Made by a program: the position numbers. Shown in pieces: positions 36,001 to 42,000 of a DNA stretch of 64,000 nucleotides. This stretch comes from an uncultured Candidatus Peribacteria bacterium (GTDB taxonomy: Bacteria; Patescibacteriota; Gracilibacteria; RBG-16-42-10), in NCBI GenBank assembly GCA_964514565.1, contig CAZERA010000001.1, positions 434,001 through 498,000 of the forward strand, given 5' to 3'. Numbering within the stretch: position 1 is the first letter of the stretch; each line of letters opens with the position of its first letter.

Positions 36001-39000
36001 CGATGTAGAAACTGTAAAGAAGTTTCGGCAGATTTTTACTATGCAAGCAGTCAGCAAGATCCGAGTAGGCATGATAGAGCATATTGATTTGATGACTATT
36101 CCAGCACAACAAATGCTTCTCAAGCTTTTAGAAGAGGCTCCACCCAAGAGCATTTTCTTGCTCACAACTACTCGACTCAAGTCAATTAGTAAGCCGATTC
36201 TTTCCCGTACTGCTGTATATAGGCTGGCTACTAAACCACATACGATTGAGTCACCTTATCAAGACTGGTTTGCTAATTTGTTTGATACCAGGGCATTGAT
36301 GATCGATAAACAGCTTCTGATCGACCAAATCGAAAAAGAAACCAGCTGGGCCCAGTTTAGTTTTGAGCTGTCGCATTATCTTTACAAAACGCATGCTAGC
36401 CCTAGCACTATTCAGAAATGGCTGTTTACATTATCATTGGCCCAACAAAGTGCTAAGATGAAGCCTCTTTTGGAATATTTCTTTTTTACTTGATATGGAA
36501 AGTTTTTGGCTCTATATAGCCGGCTTTAGCTGGATTGCTATCGCTATCATTGCTGCTCGTAGACTAGTACTGCGCTACCAAGGTGTGAGATTACCGATTC
36601 ATGAGGAGTTCAAAACTCACGACCAAATTAGTGAACAAGCGATTACGATTGAAAGAATGTTTCAGAGCAATTTGCATGACATGTCTTTCTCTGAGCTTTT
36701 GACTATGGCTGACAAGCTCAATAAAAAACAAGATTTTCGTAAAGTAGTAAAATACCTCGAAGAGGCCCTCCATCGTGATTTGCCACCGGATCATTATGTC
36801 GATATCCATGTAAAACTGATCGATGCTTACTTGGCTTTGAATGATTATCCTAGAGCGCTTGTGGTTGTTAATAAGCTACTTTTTCATTTCCCTAATGAAG
36901 CAATCTGGCAAGAGAAGGCAGCTAAGATTCAAATCTTGGCAGGTAGATATGAAGAAGCGGTAAAGACTTTAGAAGCATTGATCGATATGCATCCTCAAAA
37001 AACTTACCTAGAGCTTTTGGCTAAAGCTTATCGTAAGCTTAAGTTGCATGATAAGGCGAGGGATATTTACCAAGATATACACCGTTTTCGCTAGATATCC
37101 TTCGACTAAACTCAGGATGATTAGTGAAGAAGGAAGAGGTAAAAAGTTATTGTAGGTTTAGGGTGATATTACAATTCCTTTGTAAGCGAAGAACTTTTTG
37201 AATTGTTTGTTGCTTAGAGCAACATTACTTTGGTTTTTAGTAGTCCCTCCACTTGGGTTGTGGAAATACAGTGTTTTTGTTTTTTTGTTGTAACCAAATA
37301 GTAGGATTAAGTGACCACCTTTACTGGTTGGTGTGCTATCTGGATCACGAATGGCTGGATTTACCGAGGCGATTACGTAACCTCCCTGGCCAATAGTATT
37401 GATTATCTCTGTAATAGTAAGGGCTGTGACTGGTCTTGCTTGAAGCTGGTATTCTGCCGCGACAAAAGTACAGAAAGGTTTGTAAAAGAGACCGGGTGAA
37501 TCTTGGAGTGGTTCTTGATAGCCACCATAACTTAAACATTGTTTGGCTAGTGTCACTAAAGGCACCTTTAGTGCCTGTTTGTGTTGCAGCAACATTTTTA
37601 AACAAGCCATGCCACATGCATTCCAACTCCATAGTTCGTATTCTGCTGGTGTCACAGCACCAGAGTTTTGCCAAAGAGGATCAGCAGAAGCAAGTATTTT
37701 ACCTGTCAGTATCGCACTAGTCAGCTCAGGTGATTCCCACTGACTATAGTAAGGAACATCTTGATGACTAAAACTCTCAGGAATTTTCTTATTCACAAAA
37801 AACCACTTGAGGTACTGAACCAACAAGAGTGCTTTTTGTTTGAGTAAAACCATGGTGACTCTAGTGAAAAATGAATGATGAATAGTGAATAACTGAGGAT
37901 CCTCTACAAAGTCGCTAAACTTTTCATTATTTGTTATTCACTATTCACTCCTAGTCCTAAAACTAACTTTTTTTACCAGACTTTCTTTTCTTCTCCAATC
38001 CAAACCCTTCAAGCCTATCGCTCAAAGTAGTGTAAACATCATCTTCGTGTTCATCAGCATTGATACTGATCAACTTACCCATTTTCTCGTAGAGAGAAAC
38101 AATTGGTGCTGTCTCTTGATAGTAGTTGCTAAGGCGAAGCTTCATGCCGACGATATTGTCTTCTTTGACTAGTTTGAGATCATTGTCACACTTCTCACAA
38201 GTTTCAGCGATGGAGTCAGCTGAATAAACTGATTGGCAATAACTACAAATCTTTTTCTTGGTGATACGAGTGAGGGCATGATCGTCACCGACATTGAACA
38301 GTACAGCCACAAAATTACGTTTGTACTGACTAATCAAGCGGTTGAAGAAGTCTGCTTGGGCGAGGTTCTTGGGGAAACCGTCAAAAATAATTGGTTTCTC
38401 AGTGCTGACATTTTTGATGAAAGCCTCGACGATTTGTTGCAAGATATCGCTAGGCACTACTTGTCCTGCTGTCAGGAGTTGTTTTACTTTGCGACCAAGC
38501 TGATTGTCTTGTTTCATGGTTTTCTGAAGCTCGTAGTGGAGATCAAAAATAGCCATGTCGTAGATCTTGGTCAGCTTCATCGCTTGGCAAGTCTTGCCAG
38601 AGCCTGGAGGACCAAAGAATACTAAATCAGGGAAATAGTTGAAGCTCATGCTGCTAGCCAAGAAATTGATATCGTTGTCTTGGGCTTGTTCAGCTTTACT
38701 GAGATTGATACGCACGCTATCTGGATGCTCGCGTAGTTTGACCAGAGCTTTGGCTTCGATCTGACGAATACGTTCACGGGTGACACCAAATTCTTGACCT
38801 ACTTCTTCCAAAGTGTGTCCGATACCATCATCCAAACCGAAACGCATACGGATGATTTTTTGTTCACGTGGAGTCAGAGAATCAAGCAGTCTATGCACAT
38901 CTTCCTTGAGCAATTGGCGAGCAGCTTGAGAAGATGGACTGAGGGTCACATCATCTTCAATAAAGTCACCAAGCTTACCAGAATTGTCACCATCAGAACC

Positions 39001-42000
39001 GACTGGTGCTTCTAGAGAGACGATATCTTGAGAGATTTTCTTGATATACCGAATCTTCTTCACATCCATATCCATTTCAGAAGCAATTTCTTCGATCAAT
39101 GGTTCACGACCCAGCTCTTGTACAAGGCGACGTTGGGTATGCGTAAATTTGTTGATTGTCTCCACCATGTGCACAGGAATACGAATGGTACGAGCTTGAT
39201 CAGCAATCGCGCGTGTAATTGCCTGACGAATCCACCAAGTAGCATAGGTAGAGAATTTGAAACCTTTGCGGTAATCAAATTTTTCTACAGCACGAAACAA
39301 ACCGATATTACCCTCTTGAATTAAATCCAAAAGCGAAAGTCCACGACCAACATATTTTTTAGCGATACTAACTACCAAACGAAGATTAGCTTCAGCCAAT
39401 TGACGCTTGGCCACTGGATCATTTTTGGTGATGCGTTTGGCGAGCATTACTTCTTCTTCAGCATTGAGTAGTTCAACACGACCTATTTCACGTAGATACA
39501 TGCGGATAGAGTCTCCGGCTATGTCACCGAGGGCGAAGTTCTTTTTGTTGGTAGAAAGAAATTTATCTCGTAGTTTTTCTTCTGAAGTTTTTAGAGTAGG
39601 ATTAGCTTTTTCTTTTTCTTTGGCAACAGTTTTTTGTTGGTTTTGCCAAATGAATTCTTGTTGAGAGTCAACGATTTCAATACCGTGTTCTAGAAACTGT
39701 ACCATCACATCTTCTACTACGCCCAGATTACTTTCGAATTCTGGGATAGCATGCATGACTTCTTGTTGAGTCACGAATCCTTGCTCTTTACCTTTCTTGA
39801 TTAATAAGCGCACCTCTGGGCTATACTTTGCCAACGAATCTTGTTCGCGTTTGATACTTTTTTTTCCCACTAGGCTGATGTTAAGTATGTAGCTGTAGTA
39901 TACGAGCGGTGGCAGCTAAAATTTGTTGTTCTTCTAGTTTGTTTCCTTCGACTCTGGCTTTTTTCAATGCTCCTTGCAAGTTACGAATAGCTTCTTGTTT
40001 AAGATGGTCTTTGAGACGCTGGAAAAGCTTGGTTTTCTCAGCTAGTAGACGTTCTTGATCGTAGTCTTGACACTGTTCTTCGGTGCGAAGTAGTTGGAGA
40101 GAAAATTGATCTGAAGAGATCTGAGGTGGGAATTGACTAGTAAGTAAGCTGATATCGCTTGATACTCGTGGGGCACTATAGTACTCATATCCGTTTCTGT
40201 AAATGTCTCGAAAATCGGCAGGAAGAAGTTCTATGAGCCCTGGATCCTGGAGTGCGTCGATGAATTGGGGATAGAGTACACAGAAAGCCAGACTGACTAG
40301 CAATAAATCAGTTTGGGCTGAGCTCGGAATGGTCGGTAGGGTACGTTCGACATGGTGGGACTGGAGGGTCTTATAAATCAGCGTTTCACTCTTGTGTAGA
40401 ATATCTGCTAGTTTTTTGACATAAATATCTTGATCTAGCGGGTGAGCTAGGCGTTTGACCAGTGGAATAGTCACTTTCAAAACATCCTTTTGATCTTCGA
40501 TAAAGTTGAGATCTTTATCAGCAAAAAATGCCAACATAATATAATCAAACCAATCCAAGTGTTTTTCAATCTGCTGCATATAGAGAGCAGGATCTTGTTT
40601 GATCACAGAATCGGGATCTTGGCCTTCTCCCAAAAGGACAAAACGGGCTTGCGTTTCAGGTAAAGCGACCAGATCAGGCATAATACGTAGCGCTGCATTC
40701 TTGCCGGCTTGATCACCGTCAAAAATAAAGATAAGTGTATCTGCTTGGCGACGTAATATTTCTAAATGGCGAGGTGTAAAAGCAGTACCAGAGACTGCTA
40801 CTGTATTTAGTATGCCGGCTTGCACACTAGTAAGACAATCAACCTGGCCTTCAACAATATGTACTCGTCTAGCGGCTTTGATGCTGGACTTGGCTTGGTA
40901 TAAACCGTAAATGAACGAGCTTTTGTGAAACAAGACTGTCTCAGGAGAGTTGAGATACTTTGGTTGATTTTCATTGGTGAGGGCTCGCCCAGTGAAACCA
41001 ATCACATCGCCTCGATCACCATAAAAAGGGAAAATAATGCGGTCACGAAATTTGTCATGGCCACTTGCTTCTTTGTCACCTTGAATACTGACACCGGCCG
41101 CTAATTGCTCAGCCAGTGAGAAGCCGGATTTGAGGAGATGATCATGCAATAACTGCCAGCTATCAGGTGCATAACCTAAGCCGAACTGAGCGATGATACT
41201 CGCGCTAATGTTTCTTTGGTTGAGATAAGCTTGTGCTGTAGTAGCTGTAGCTGTTTGTTTCTGAAAAAAGCTTTGAGCTTCTCTGAGCAGTGCCCGCAGT
41301 TTTTCTTTTTCATCTTTCTGGGCTGAACTGTAAGCAGCTGATTTTTGATCAATGCTTAGTCCCACCCGGTCCGCCAAATCATGAATAGCTTCCCCAAAGT
41401 CTACCTTCTCAACTGTCATGTAGAACTTAAAAATGTCCCCCCCTTGATGGCAGCCAAAACAATAAGCAATGCCCTTGTCTGGACTAACCATGAAGGATGG
41501 TGTCTTTTCTTGATGAAATGGGCAAAGACCTTTGTAATTGCGACCAGAACGTTTGAGCGTCACATAGTCTTTGACCAAATCTTCAATACTGAGCCGGGAT
41601 TTTATTTCTACGACGGGGTCTAGCATTTAATTAACAAGTGACAATTTACAATTAACAGTTTTTTGGGGGGAGAAAAGGGGGCTTACTTTCGGATAATTAT
41701 GTCGCTTGCAGGGAAGCGGACTTTTGCTAGTTTGCTAGTTGCGTCACTGTCTTTACGGAAACCAACTGGACAGATTACTGTTGATTCGATGTTGTATTCA
41801 CTGAGACCCAGTATTTCGTCAAAGCCGGCATTGTTGAAACCTTCCATTGGACAAGCATCGATTTTTTCTAATGCACAAGTAGTCAGGAGTACGCCCAAAG
41901 CGATGTAAACTTGTTTCTTTGACCATGTCCTTACTGCTTCTGCATCTTTGCCATTGATTACACTCATCATCATTTGATGGAAACCATCGAGCTTCTCACG

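What a model noticed while it worked through the whole genome (the two positions that open the first line are those of the whole stretch)
37963..39870. Primary sigma factor RpoD fused to an adenylate-kinase-like domain
The housekeeping sigma-70 (regions 1.1-4, aa 16-381) continues without a stop into an adenylate-kinase-fold domain (aa 419-598). The fusion is a trait of this GTDB family (Abawacabacteria-like) and was not seen in other CPR RpoD. Three conserved Arg of canonical Adk are replaced in every fused copy and a fourth in most, so the domain is more likely a nucleotide sensor than a kinase.
Evidence so far: - Pfam finds all five sigma-70 regions plus ADK (E 1.2e-26) in one 635-aa ORF. 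- 11 of 120 listed homologues (81-96% identical) share PF00406; the other 109 RpoD hits lack it. - 7 of 8 family genomes have the fusion; all 8 also have a separate adk. - The domain is 32% identical to the genome's own Adk, E 8e-44. - The Walker A loop and the Cys4 lid are kept. - In 12 of 12 fused proteins: ELRK Arg->Gln, second Arg of YRVTNRR->Lys, HRADD Arg->Val/Ile. GVPR Arg->Lys in 7 of 12. - No paper combines the three search terms.
(Added by a program. Inside this text positions count along the whole contig: contig position 434,001 is position 1 of the stretch shown here. "Call 12" and the like, gene names such as g00115 and contig names such as C1 are that model's own, and its searches are not shown. 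The text may have been shortened before it was handed on; [...] marks where a part breaks off. The agent that wrote the report below was given it as the finding of a first reader that could run no searches.)

Follow-up and report, generated by a model that had tools for sequence, protein, structure and literature searches.

The report
Housekeeping sigma factor carrying a dead adenylate kinase
The main transcription-initiation factor of a small group of uncultivated, tiny-genome bacteria ends in a well-conserved copy of the enzyme adenylate kinase that has lost key catalytic residues but kept its ATP-binding loop, so it may act as a built-in nucleotide-sensing switch.

Summary
Window 37963..39870 (-) is one intact 635-aa ORF. 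It holds all five sigma-70 regions (aa 16-381), a conserved linker of about 23-33 aa, and a complete adenylate-kinase (Adk) fold (aa 415-624). It lies directly after dnaG and is the only group-1-type sigma in the genome.

The fusion is intact in 7 of 8 genomes of its GTDB family and in 11 protein clusters from public data. It was not found in the other class genomes sampled, nor as a free-standing protein.

Of the five active-site Arg of Adk, three are replaced in all copies: R36 to Q, R123 to K, R156 to V or I. A fourth, R88, is K in 4 of 7 genomes. D158 is E. R123, R156 and D158 are invariant in 104 of 104 free Adks.

The P-loop Lys, R119, R167, D84, Q92 and the Cys4 zinc lid are all kept. 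The P-loop has become a classical GxxxxGKT.

The domain is more conserved than the genomes' real Adk in 15 of 15 genome pairs.

Best reading: a catalytically crippled, nucleotide-binding pseudo-kinase that regulates sigma region 4 in cis. The loss of kinase chemistry is well supported. The sensor role is inference.

I rate it a new variant of a known kind (sigma with a fused regulatory domain), of moderate to high interest.

The parts
37963..39870 (-). Whole rpoD-ADK-like gene, 635 aa, GTG start, TAG stop
   Evidence: Orthologous intact ORFs of 624-635 aa in 7 genomes.
39610..39825 (-). Sigma-70 region 1.1 (aa 16-87)
   Evidence: Pfam PF03979, E 1.4e-13
39418..39513 (-). Sigma-70 region 1.2 (aa 120-151)
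   Evidence: Pfam PF00140, E 4.9e-14
39187..39399 (-). Sigma-70 region 2 (aa 158-228)
   Evidence: Pfam PF04542, E 3.4e-24. Invariant across 12 orthologues.
38932..39162 (-). Sigma-70 region 3 (aa 237-313)
   Evidence: Pfam PF04539, E 1.4e-20
38728..38889 (-). Sigma-70 region 4 (aa 328-381)
   Evidence: Pfam PF04545, E 2.7e-19
38629..38727 (-). Junction (aa 382-414). It holds the usual short RpoD C-terminal tail (to about aa 392), then a conserved linker of about 23 aa (..KAEQ..DND.NFL..SF.YFPD).
   Evidence: Conserved in 12 of 12 orthologues. Unfused relatives end at the equivalent of about aa 390-395. In the AF2 model it has low confidence (pLDDT 50-61), with a helix predicted at aa 391-406.
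37999..38628 (-). Adenylate-kinase-fold domain (aa 415-624), catalytically degenerate
   Evidence: Pfam ADK 94.1 bits. AF2 mean pLDDT 88.1 and pTM 0.80. Foldseek best hits are Zn-lid Adks with target-normalised TM 0.78-0.82. Residue table.
38590..38613 (-). P-loop GPPGSGKT (aa 420-427). The Lys equivalent to E. coli K13 is kept, and Gly14 is replaced by Thr.
   Evidence: Invariant apart from S or A at aa 424 in 12 orthologues. Position 14 is T in 7 of 7 fused copies against 1 of 104 free Adks.
38188..38247 (-). Cys4 zinc lid (C542, C545, C558, C561), of the short type found in this bacterial class
   Evidence: The four Cys are invariant in 12 of 12 proteins and 7 of 7 genomes. The lid shares the 4-residue deletion of the class's free Adks. 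Pfam ADK_lid gave no hit at E<=0.01.
37966..37998 (-). Short basic C-terminal tail (aa 625-635, [11 protein letters not shown])
   Evidence: A Lys/Arg-rich end is present in all 12 orthologues. pLDDT is low.
39881..41626 (-). dnaG (primase) directly upstream. Its stop lies 10 nt before the rpoD GTG.
   Evidence: Pfam DnaG domains. Junction sequence. dnaG-rpoD order in 8 of 8 loci examined.

Best explanation
This is the essential, housekeeping sigma factor (RpoD) of an Abawacabacteria-like member of the class Gracilibacteria (candidate phyla radiation). An adenylate-kinase gene of the local (class-type, short zinc-lid) kind was fused to its 3' end in the ancestor of one family.

After the fusion the kinase domain changed quickly (long stem branch). 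It lost three to four of the five active-site arginines and part of the AMP pocket. It kept the ATP side: the P-loop Lys, the Arg that stacks on adenine (R119), the lid Arg R167, the Mg-related Asp84, and the zinc lid. It has since been held under purifying selection stronger than that on the genome's real Adk.

Most likely mechanism (inferred): the domain no longer transfers phosphate at a useful rate but still binds an adenine nucleotide. Its Adk-type open/closed movement is tethered about 23 residues from the end of region 4. That movement would modulate how region 4 engages the beta-flap, the -35 element or upstream DNA, coupling bulk transcription initiation to nucleotide or energy status.

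My odds for each step:
- architecture and housekeeping role: 0.97
- not a normal Adk: 0.85
- still binds a nucleotide: 0.65
- nucleotide-dependent control of sigma in cis: about 0.4
For: Architecture
- One ORF with five sigma-70 regions plus ADK.
- TIGR02393 RpoD_Cterm scores 362.6 against a cut-off of 354.
- The other three region-2 hits in the genome lie in open frames of 193-222 aa.
- dnaG-rpoD order in 8 of 8 loci.

Real and inherited
- Intact in 7 of 8 family genomes and in 11 protein clusters.
- The tree of the fused domains forms one clade (SH-aLRT 100) whose inner branching follows the three genera (quick tree).

Never free-standing
- Among proteins shorter than 349 aa, the only close hits are two fragments on contigs of 560 and 812 bp.
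- Among 1.84 billion representatives, the only close hit is a fused orthologue (466 bits). The best single-domain free Adk scores 142 bits at <=34% identity.

Kinase chemistry lost
- R36 to Q, R123 to K, R156 to V/I and D158 to E in 7 of 7 copies.
- Free Adks keep R123, R156 and D158 in 104 of 104, R36 in 99 of 104 and R88 in 103 of 104 (E. coli numbering).
- In E. coli AdK, R88A, R123A, R156K and R167A have <1% of wild-type activity and R36A has 17%, while KM(ATP) stays at 52-120 uM (PMC8297476, passages read).
- adk equivalog models score below their cut-offs: TIGR01351 129.5 against 168, NF001380 129.4 against 251.

ATP side kept
- K13, D84, Q92, R119, R167 and the four Cys are kept in 7 of 7 copies.
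- The P-loop is near-invariant in 12 of 12 proteins.
- Gly14 to Thr makes a classical Walker A, in 7 of 7 fused copies against 1 of 104 free Adks.

Fold intact
- AF2 pLDDT 88.1. Foldseek target-normalised TM 0.78-0.82 to Zn-lid Adks.

Selection
- pN is 0.056-0.174 against saturated pS of 0.75-0.87 in the domain.
- The domain is more conserved than the same genomes' own Adk in 15 of 15 genome pairs (72-96% against 58-86% identity).
- The linker is also conserved.

The catalytic job is already covered: all 8 family genomes keep a canonical adk. In this genome it sits beside a SecY-like ORF and keeps all five Arg.
Against: - No call tests ligand binding, activity, or any effect on transcription. 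The mechanism is inference from residues and position.
- Lys stands at the R123 position and directly after the R156 position (K539, K569), and R88 is still Arg in 3 of 7 genomes. Some residual or altered phosphotransfer or ATPase activity is therefore not excluded.
- The position equivalent to Gly32 in the AMP pocket varies among fused copies (H, P, Q). This argues against a tightly defined second ligand there.
- The genome has a long RelA/SpoT-type gene (PF04607 E 4.6e-41, open frame 729 aa) and a normal alpha C-terminal domain. There is thus no obvious regulatory gap that the domain must fill.
- The domain is more basic than free Adks (pI 7.8-8.5 against 5.0-7.6). The sister lineage carries a Lys-rich tail at the same site. 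This fits a plain DNA-contact role equally well.
Confidence: 0.5

Rival explanations
1. Nucleotide-independent adaptor. The Adk-derived domain is kept only as a folded, basic module. It would contact upstream promoter DNA or another protein near region 4, such as the RNA polymerase alpha subunit, an activator or a host factor. On this reading the P-loop is conserved for fold stability, not for signalling.
For: - The fused domains are more basic than free Adks: pI 7.8-8.5 with 20-25 Lys, against pI 5.0-7.6.
- They end in a Lys/Arg tail in 12 of 12 proteins.
- Catalytic Arg are replaced partly by Lys runs (KKK at aa 538-540).
- In the sister family (G008) and in P0245, the same site on RpoD carries a Lys-rich tail of about 190-210 aa after a shared linker start (SVRIN.SKAE). 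This suggests the ancestral function of the extension is charge-based DNA contact.
Against: - A P-loop with no ligand would be expected to decay. Here G420-P-P-G-x-G-K-T, R119, R167, D84 and Q92 are kept in all copies.
- The Gly14 to Thr change creates a canonical Mg-binding Walker A rather than destroying it (the role of that Thr is recalled knowledge).
Confidence: 0.25
2. It is still an enzyme: a tethered phosphotransferase or ATPase with altered chemistry. Lys residues would replace Arg, and there might be a new phosphate acceptor. It would act at the promoter, for example in local nucleotide interconversion or ATP-driven remodelling of the initiation complex.
For: - K13, D84, R119, R167 and D159 are kept. 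D159 is D in 5 of 7 copies and E in 2 of 7.
- Lys stands at the R123 position and next to the R156 position.
- R88 is Arg in 3 of 7 genomes.
- Classical Walker A GKT is typical of hydrolysing P-loop NTPases (recalled).
- Constraint on the domain is strong.
Against: - A conservative Arg to Lys change at R156 already leaves <1% activity in E. coli AdK, as do R88A, R123A and R167A (PMC8297476). Here three or four sites are changed at once, including R156 to V or I.
- AMP-pocket residues T31, G32 and R36 are all replaced.
- The genome keeps a canonical Adk.
- No free Adk among the 104 examined tolerates a change at R123, R156 or D158.
Confidence: 0.13
3. Artefact: two adjacent genes (rpoD and a second adk) read as one because of an assembly or sequencing error at the junction.
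For: None found. The only gap is one family genome (G005) without an RpoD match.
Against: - The same uninterrupted frame is found in 7 separately assembled genomes, with 72-97% identity and many synonymous differences.
- It is also found in 11 protein clusters from NCBI, JGI, ENA and Logan sources.
- The junction is conserved at protein level.
- No full-length free copy exists.
Confidence: 0.01

Closest known systems
Primary (group 1) sigma factor RpoD / sigma-70
   Same: All regions 1.1-4 are present. The RpoD C-terminal model scores above its cut-off. The gene follows dnaG. It is the only long sigma in the genome. The sigma part is 57-79% identical to ordinary RpoDs of 370-490 aa in the same class, leaving aside one family at 40-44%.
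   Different: It carries about 245 extra C-terminal residues that form an Adk fold. Full-length RpoD equivalog models score below their cut-offs (493.1 against 555; 479.5 against 572). In the 121 class genomes searched with the sigma part, open frames over 600 aa occur only in this family (7 genomes) and its sister genome G008.
Bacterial adenylate kinase, long form with Cys4 zinc lid (e.g. Bacillus Adk, PDB 1p3j and 1zin; E. coli Adk 1ake for numbering)
   Same: Same fold (target-normalised TM 0.78-0.82). It keeps the P-loop Lys, D84, Q92, R119, R167 and the zinc ligands. It has the short lid and the 'YDMA.F' motif of the class's own Adks.
   Different: R36 to Q, R123 to K, R156 to V/I, D158 to E, G14 to T, T31 to L and G32 to H/P/Q in all copies; R88 to K in 4 of 7 genomes. 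It scores below the NCBIfam adk cut-offs and gives no Pfam ADK_lid hit. It is never free-standing. It does not group with the family's own Adk in the tree, and its placement is unresolved.
ECF41-type sigma factors with a fused C-terminal regulatory domain (Wecke et al. 2012, PMC3426412; abstract read)
   Same: A large extension after region 4 of a sigma-70-family protein. In ECF41 that extension is needed for and regulates sigma activity in cis, without a separate anti-sigma factor. This is the closest functional precedent for what is proposed here.
   Different: ECF41 proteins are group-4 alternative sigmas with small regulons and only regions 2 and 4. Here the carrier is the essential housekeeping sigma, and the appended fold is a nucleotide-kinase P-loop domain. 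There is no sequence relationship between the extensions.
RpoD with a Lys-rich C-terminal tail in the sister lineage (G008, locus L019 1498..3324; protein P0245)
   Same: Same insertion point and a shared start of the linker (HP[DE]SV.IN.[SA]KA..). The sigma part is 76-78% identical, and the gene also follows dnaG.
   Different: The extension is a low-complexity Lys/Ala/Val/Pro-rich tail of about 190-210 aa with no P-loop and no ADK match.

Membership tests
Group 1 sigma factor (RpoD) | Regions 1.1, 1.2, 2, 3 and 4 all present in order | tested here: met
   Five Pfam sigma-70 region models match, each above its gathering score.
Group 1 sigma factor (RpoD) | Scores above curated RpoD model cut-offs | tested here: inconclusive
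   TIGR02393 RpoD_Cterm scores 362.6 against 354, which is met. The full-length equivalogs score below their cut-offs: NF004208 493.1 against 555, and NF006666 479.5 against 572.
Group 1 sigma factor (RpoD) | Sole primary sigma of the genome, in the conserved dnaG-rpoD arrangement | tested here: met
   The other three region-2 hits lie in open frames of 193-222 aa. dnaG lies directly upstream in 8 of 8 loci. The genome is 92.7% complete, so a second copy is unlikely but not excluded.
Adenylate kinase (EC 2.7.4.3; PF00406 / TIGR01351) | Adk fold with core, NMP-binding and lid parts | tested here: met
   Pfam ADK 94.1 bits against 26.8. AF2 pLDDT 88.1. Foldseek target-normalised TM 0.78-0.82 to solved Adks.
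Adenylate kinase (EC 2.7.4.3; PF00406 / TIGR01351) | Five active-site arginines (E. coli R36, R88, R123, R156, R167) | tested here: not met
   R36 to Q, R123 to K and R156 to V/I in 7 of 7 copies. R88 to K in 4 of 7. Only R167 is always kept. Free Adks keep them in 99-104 of 104. The list of five is stated in PMC8297476.
Adenylate kinase (EC 2.7.4.3; PF00406 / TIGR01351) | Curated equivalog/subfamily score | tested here: not met
   TIGR01351 129.5 against 168. NF001380 129.4 against 251.
Adenylate kinase (EC 2.7.4.3; PF00406 / TIGR01351) | P-loop GxPGxGKGT with catalytic Lys | tested here: inconclusive
   The Lys is kept in 7 of 7. The motif has changed to GPPGSGKT[C/T/S]. Gly14 is Thr in 7 of 7, against 1 of 104 free Adks.
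Adenylate kinase (EC 2.7.4.3; PF00406 / TIGR01351) | ATP + AMP = 2 ADP activity | not testable with these tools
   Needs an enzyme assay.
Sigma factors with a fused C-terminal regulatory domain (ECF41-like) | ECF (group 4) sigma core of regions 2 and 4 only | tested here: not met
   Regions 1.1, 1.2 and 3 are present. This is a group-1 sigma.
Sigma factors with a fused C-terminal regulatory domain (ECF41-like) | Large conserved extension directly after region 4 | tested here: met
   aa 382-635, conserved in 12 of 12 orthologues.
Sigma factors with a fused C-terminal regulatory domain (ECF41-like) | The extension controls sigma activity in cis | not testable with these tools
   Needs truncation and transcription assays.

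The most novel reading that the evidence does not exclude
The housekeeping sigma factor of this lineage is itself a ligand-gated switch. An ex-adenylate kinase has been converted to a classical Walker-A nucleotide-binding module. Its ATP/ADP/AMP-dependent lid closure would gate engagement of region 4 with the polymerase flap and the -35 element. All bulk transcription initiation would then be throttled directly by cellular energy charge or scavenged nucleotide supply. 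That would be a global control layer built into sigma-70 rather than supplied by a separate factor.
Probability: 0.3. Interest if true: 0.85.

Novelty: new variant of a known kind. Interest (0 to 1): 0.62.

Why it matters
Primary sigma factors are among the most conserved and least decorated bacterial proteins. Regulation of their region 4 is normally done by separate proteins, such as anti-sigmas and activators.

A nucleotide-kinase-derived domain welded onto the essential sigma, and kept under stronger constraint than the real enzyme, would have three consequences if it senses nucleotides:
- It would be a new way of coupling global transcription to energy state in genome-reduced, host-dependent bacteria that must scavenge nucleotides.
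- It would be a clean natural example of an enzyme turning into a pseudo-enzyme switch, with the functional paralogue still in the same genome for comparison.
- It could serve as a template for engineering ligand-gated sigma factors.

It is directly testable in vitro, because both halves belong to well-studied families.

Tried and rejected
- Full-length AF2 fold with the 12-sequence alignment A1: mean pLDDT 50.1, pTM 0.30. It is unusable for asking how the two halves pack.
- Complex prediction of sigma regions 1.2-4 (aa 120-390) against linker plus ADK-like domain (aa 391-635): score 0.01 against a mark of 0.32, and the tool's verdict was 'no answer'. This is not evidence either way.
- Origin of the domain: the careful IQ-TREE run did not finish in 300 s. 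The quick tree puts the fused clade on a 1.06-substitutions-per-site stem inside the short-lid Adk group (SH-aLRT 96). It is not next to the family's own Adks, and its exact placement is unresolved. The highest identities are to free Adks of another family of the class (38-41%, G101, G301, G147), against 27-32% to the family's own Adks. The own Adks are themselves long-branched (0.72), so I do not claim a donor.
- Idea 'the domain replaces a missing stringent response': rejected, because a RelA/SpoT-type gene is present.
- Idea 'the sigma extension replaces a missing alpha C-terminal domain': rejected, because RpoA with its CTD is present.
- Idea 'internal start makes a free ADK-like protein': the only Met in the linker (M408) is Leu in 6 of 12 orthologues, and no full-length free copy was found.
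- Looking for the fusion elsewhere:
  - 0 of 24 long (351-921 aa) ADK-containing hits have a sigma domain.
  - The ESM Atlas look-up returned only free Adk clusters at score 0.76, a lead-level result.
  - A promoter/terminator scan around the gene gave 10 promoter-like sites against 10.8 expected from shuffles.
- Literature:
  - 'sigma factor' + 'adenylate kinase' + 'fusion' + 'Patescibacteria', at least 3 of 4 terms: 42 papers, 15 listed, none on this fusion.
  - 'Abawacabacteria': 7 papers, 6 listed; by title and abstract start, none concerns sigma factors.
  - 'primary sigma factor' / 'C-terminal extension' / 'candidate phyla radiation': 27 papers, 12 listed, none on this.
  - 'RpoD' + 'adenylate kinase domain': 0 papers.
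  - 'adenylate kinase-like' / 'catalytically inactive' / 'nucleotide sensor': 30 papers, 12 listed, none relevant.
  - Subscription-only papers and supplements were not searched.
- Sequencing-run and read-mapping tools were not used.

Full report
**What is there**

Window 37963..39870 on the minus strand is a single 635-aa ORF with a GTG start and no internal stop. Pfam places sigma-70 region 1.1 at aa 16-87, 1.2 at 120-151, 2 at 158-228, 3 at 237-313 and 4 at 328-381. It also places an adenylate-kinase (ADK, PF00406) match at aa 419-598, at 94.1 bits against a gathering score of 26.8.

NCBIfam supports RpoD. The RpoD C-terminal model TIGR02393 scores 362.6 against a cut-off of 354. The full-length RpoD equivalogs score high but below their cut-offs.

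The gene begins 10 nt after the stop of dnaG. The dnaG-rpoD order is kept in 8 of 8 related loci examined.

The 1.12-Mb genome (92.7% complete) has three further region-2 hits, all in open frames of 193-222 aa. So this is the housekeeping sigma.

A separate canonical adk lies elsewhere on the same contig, beside a SecY-like ORF.

**Is the fusion real, and how far does it reach?**

- A full-length match is present in 7 of the 8 genomes of the GTDB family, across three genera. All 8 also hold a free adk.
- The seven copies are intact ORFs of 624-635 aa, and all start with GTG.
- The eighth genome (85% complete, 180 contigs) gave no RpoD match at all.
- A word-indexed search of 5.8 billion proteins with the ADK-like part found 11 proteins of 627-634 aa. 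All have the five sigma domains plus ADK. Where sources name them, they are called RpoD of 'Candidatus Abawacabacteria' or 'Candidatus Gracilibacteria'.
- With the whole protein as query, 11 of the 120 listed homologues carry PF00406 and 109 do not.
- The only other genome of the order (G008, a second family) has an RpoD 78% identical over aa 2-397. Its C-terminal extension of about 210 aa is Lys-rich and has no ADK match. A metagenomic protein, P0245, is of the same kind.
- Slightly more distant relatives (71-76% identical, 388-408 aa) end shortly after region 4. They include a record named Abawacabacteria (P0254).
- In a sample of 401 genomes of the class, an ADK match inside an open frame longer than 600 aa occurred only in the seven family genomes. 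The other listed matches lay in frames of 176-322 aa, and 256 weaker matches were not listed.
- With the sigma part as query, in 121 class genomes open frames over 600 aa occurred only in those seven and G008.
- No free-standing copy of this particular domain was found. The only close short hits are fragments on contigs of 560 and 812 bp.
- Among 1.84 billion cluster representatives, the only close hit is a fused orthologue. The rest are tandem-ADK proteins and free Adks at 34% identity or less.
- 0 of 24 long hits checked have a sigma domain.

**The kinase domain**

With an alignment of 7 fused domains and 104 free Adks, AlphaFold2 gives mean pLDDT 88.1 and pTM 0.80. The core (aa 415-624) is mostly above 90. 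Foldseek's best matches are zinc-lid adenylate kinases, with target-normalised TM 0.78-0.82.

I numbered residues against E. coli adk taken from NC_000913. I then counted them in the 111-sequence alignment.

Kept in 7 of 7 fused copies:
- K13
- D84
- Q92
- R119
- R167
- the four zinc-binding Cys

Replaced:

| E. coli residue | Fused copies (7) | Free Adks (104) |
|---|---|---|
| R36 | Q in 7 | R in 99 |
| R123 | K in 7 | R in 104 |
| R156 | V or I in 7 | R in 104 |
| D158 | E in 7 | D in 104 |
| G14 | T in 7 | G in 97 |
| T31 | L in 7 | T in 66 |
| G32 | H, P or Q in 7 | G in 101 |
| R88 | K in 4, R in 3 | R in 103 |

The genome's own Adk keeps all five arginines.

A study of E. coli AdK (PMC8297476, passages read) names R36, R88, R123, R156 and R167 as the five conserved active-site arginines. 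It reports less than 1% of wild-type activity for R88A, R123A, R156K and R167A, and 17% for R36A. KM for ATP was little changed (52-120 uM).

So the sequence predicts a protein that can still hold ATP but is a very poor phosphotransferase. The AMP pocket is also remodelled.

The P-loop has become GPPGSGKT, a classical Walker A. From general knowledge of P-loop NTPases (recalled), that Thr ligates Mg.

The NCBIfam adk models score below their cut-offs. Pfam's ADK_lid gave no hit at E<=0.01.

**History and constraint**

The fused domains share two features with the free Adks of this class: the shortened zinc lid, and a 'YDMA.F' motif seen in one other family. The donor was therefore a local-type adk.

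In a quick maximum-likelihood tree (the careful run did not finish) the seven fused domains form one clade (SH-aLRT 100). It sits on a long stem (1.06 substitutions per site). Its inner branching follows the three genera. It does not sit next to the family's own Adks, and its exact placement is unresolved.

This pattern indicates one fusion in the family's ancestor. A burst of change followed, and the fused gene was then inherited vertically.

Since then the domain has been tightly held:
- Non-synonymous differences are 0.056-0.174 per site against saturated synonymous differences (0.75-0.87).
- In 15 of 15 genome pairs the fused domain is more conserved than the real Adk of the same genomes (72-96% against 58-86% identity).
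- It still evolves about 3-8 times faster, by pair, than the sigma core (pN 0.010-0.037).

The junction is conserved too. Comparison with unfused relatives shows that the ordinary RpoD tail ends at about aa 390-395. Only about 23 residues therefore separate sigma's normal end from the first strand of the kinase fold. The start of this linker (SVRIN.SKAE) is shared with the Lys-tail lineage. The end of RpoD thus seems to have been an accretion point in the whole order.

**Mechanism**

What is shown:
- It is the housekeeping sigma.
- It carries an intact Adk fold.
- The ATP-side residues are conserved.
- The arginines that do the chemistry are lost.
- Purifying selection on the domain is strong.
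- A canonical Adk is retained elsewhere in the genome.

What is inferred: the domain binds an adenine nucleotide and uses the Adk open/closed movement as a switch. Because it is tethered close to region 4, it would alter how region 4 meets the beta flap, the -35 element or upstream DNA. The place of region 4 in the holoenzyme is established knowledge, recalled here.

The nearest functional precedent is the ECF41 group of alternative sigmas. Their large C-terminal extension is crucial for sigma activity and acts as a fused regulatory domain (PMC3426412, abstract read). Those are group-4 sigmas with unrelated extensions.

The main rival is a nucleotide-independent DNA or protein contact module. 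It is favoured by the domain's basic character (pI 7.8-8.5 against 5.0-7.6 for free Adks), by the Lys/Arg tail, and by the Lys-rich tail in the sister lineage. It is disfavoured by the near-invariant P-loop.

A second rival is a residual or altered enzyme. It is not excluded, because Lys stands at or next to two of the lost Arg positions and R88 is still Arg in 3 of 7 genomes.

Two contextual ideas failed. The genome has a RelA/SpoT-type gene and a normal alpha C-terminal domain. The domain is therefore not filling an obvious gap.

**Novelty**

None of five full-text searches found a paper on a sigma factor fused to an adenylate-kinase domain. The library lacks most subscription journals. Public records simply name these proteins RpoD.

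Fused regulatory domains on sigma factors are known, and so are pseudo-enzymes. A P-loop kinase-derived domain on the essential group-1 sigma was not found in any of these searches.

I therefore rate it a new variant of a known kind. It is confined to one family of uncultivated bacteria. Its architecture is very well supported, and the proposed mechanism is testable but untested.

Noticed in passing
L019 1498..3324 (G008, sister family); protein P0245: RpoD of the sister lineage carries a Lys/Ala/Val/Pro-rich, histone-H1-like tail of about 190-210 aa at exactly the site where this family has the ADK-like domain. It shares the start of the linker.
   Followed up: partly
G000:C1:192322-192963 (outside the window) and 26 other class genomes (loci L014, L016-L018, L027-L049): All 27 free Adks taken from class genomes have an unusual P-loop, G-x-Q-G-[SA]-G-K-G-T, with Gln where most bacteria have Pro. 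The fused domain has the common Pro.
   Followed up: partly
Free Adks of the family (L014, L016-L018, L047-L049): The family's own Adks are long-branched (stem 0.72). Six of the seven have a basic C-terminal extension of about 15-20 aa, shorter in G002, that the other class Adks lack.
   Followed up: no
G002:C8:32641-33309 (L015) and G002:C9:14660-15637: One family genome has extra sigma-70-like matches inside long open frames of 621 and 591 aa, 34-38% identical to regions 2-4. These may be other extended sigma-family proteins.
   Followed up: no
G000:C4:18325-18720 (L052) and G000:C6:9723-9866 (L054): There is a second, weak RelA_SpoT-domain hit in a 624-aa open frame. There is also a second alpha-CTD-like hit in a 122-aa open frame.
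   Followed up: no
window 37158..37853 (-): The gene downstream of rpoD encodes a 231-aa Peptidase_C39_2-like protein, with a short match to Guanylate_cyc_2. It was not found next to rpoD in the other family loci, which hold 1.5 kb of flank each.
   Followed up: partly
window 43332..44459 (-): A 375-aa ORF with no Pfam family at E<=1e-4.
   Followed up: no
class genomes, e.g. G029, G081, G072, G116: RpoD and Adk matches in several families of the class contain 4-20 in-frame TGA codons. This fits lineages of the class that read TGA as an amino acid. The gene studied here and its family have none.
   Followed up: no
L010 (G006), about 4473-4482: The dnaG match upstream of rpoD is split into two pieces at about aa 217-223. 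This may be an indel or a frameshift in that genome.
   Followed up: no
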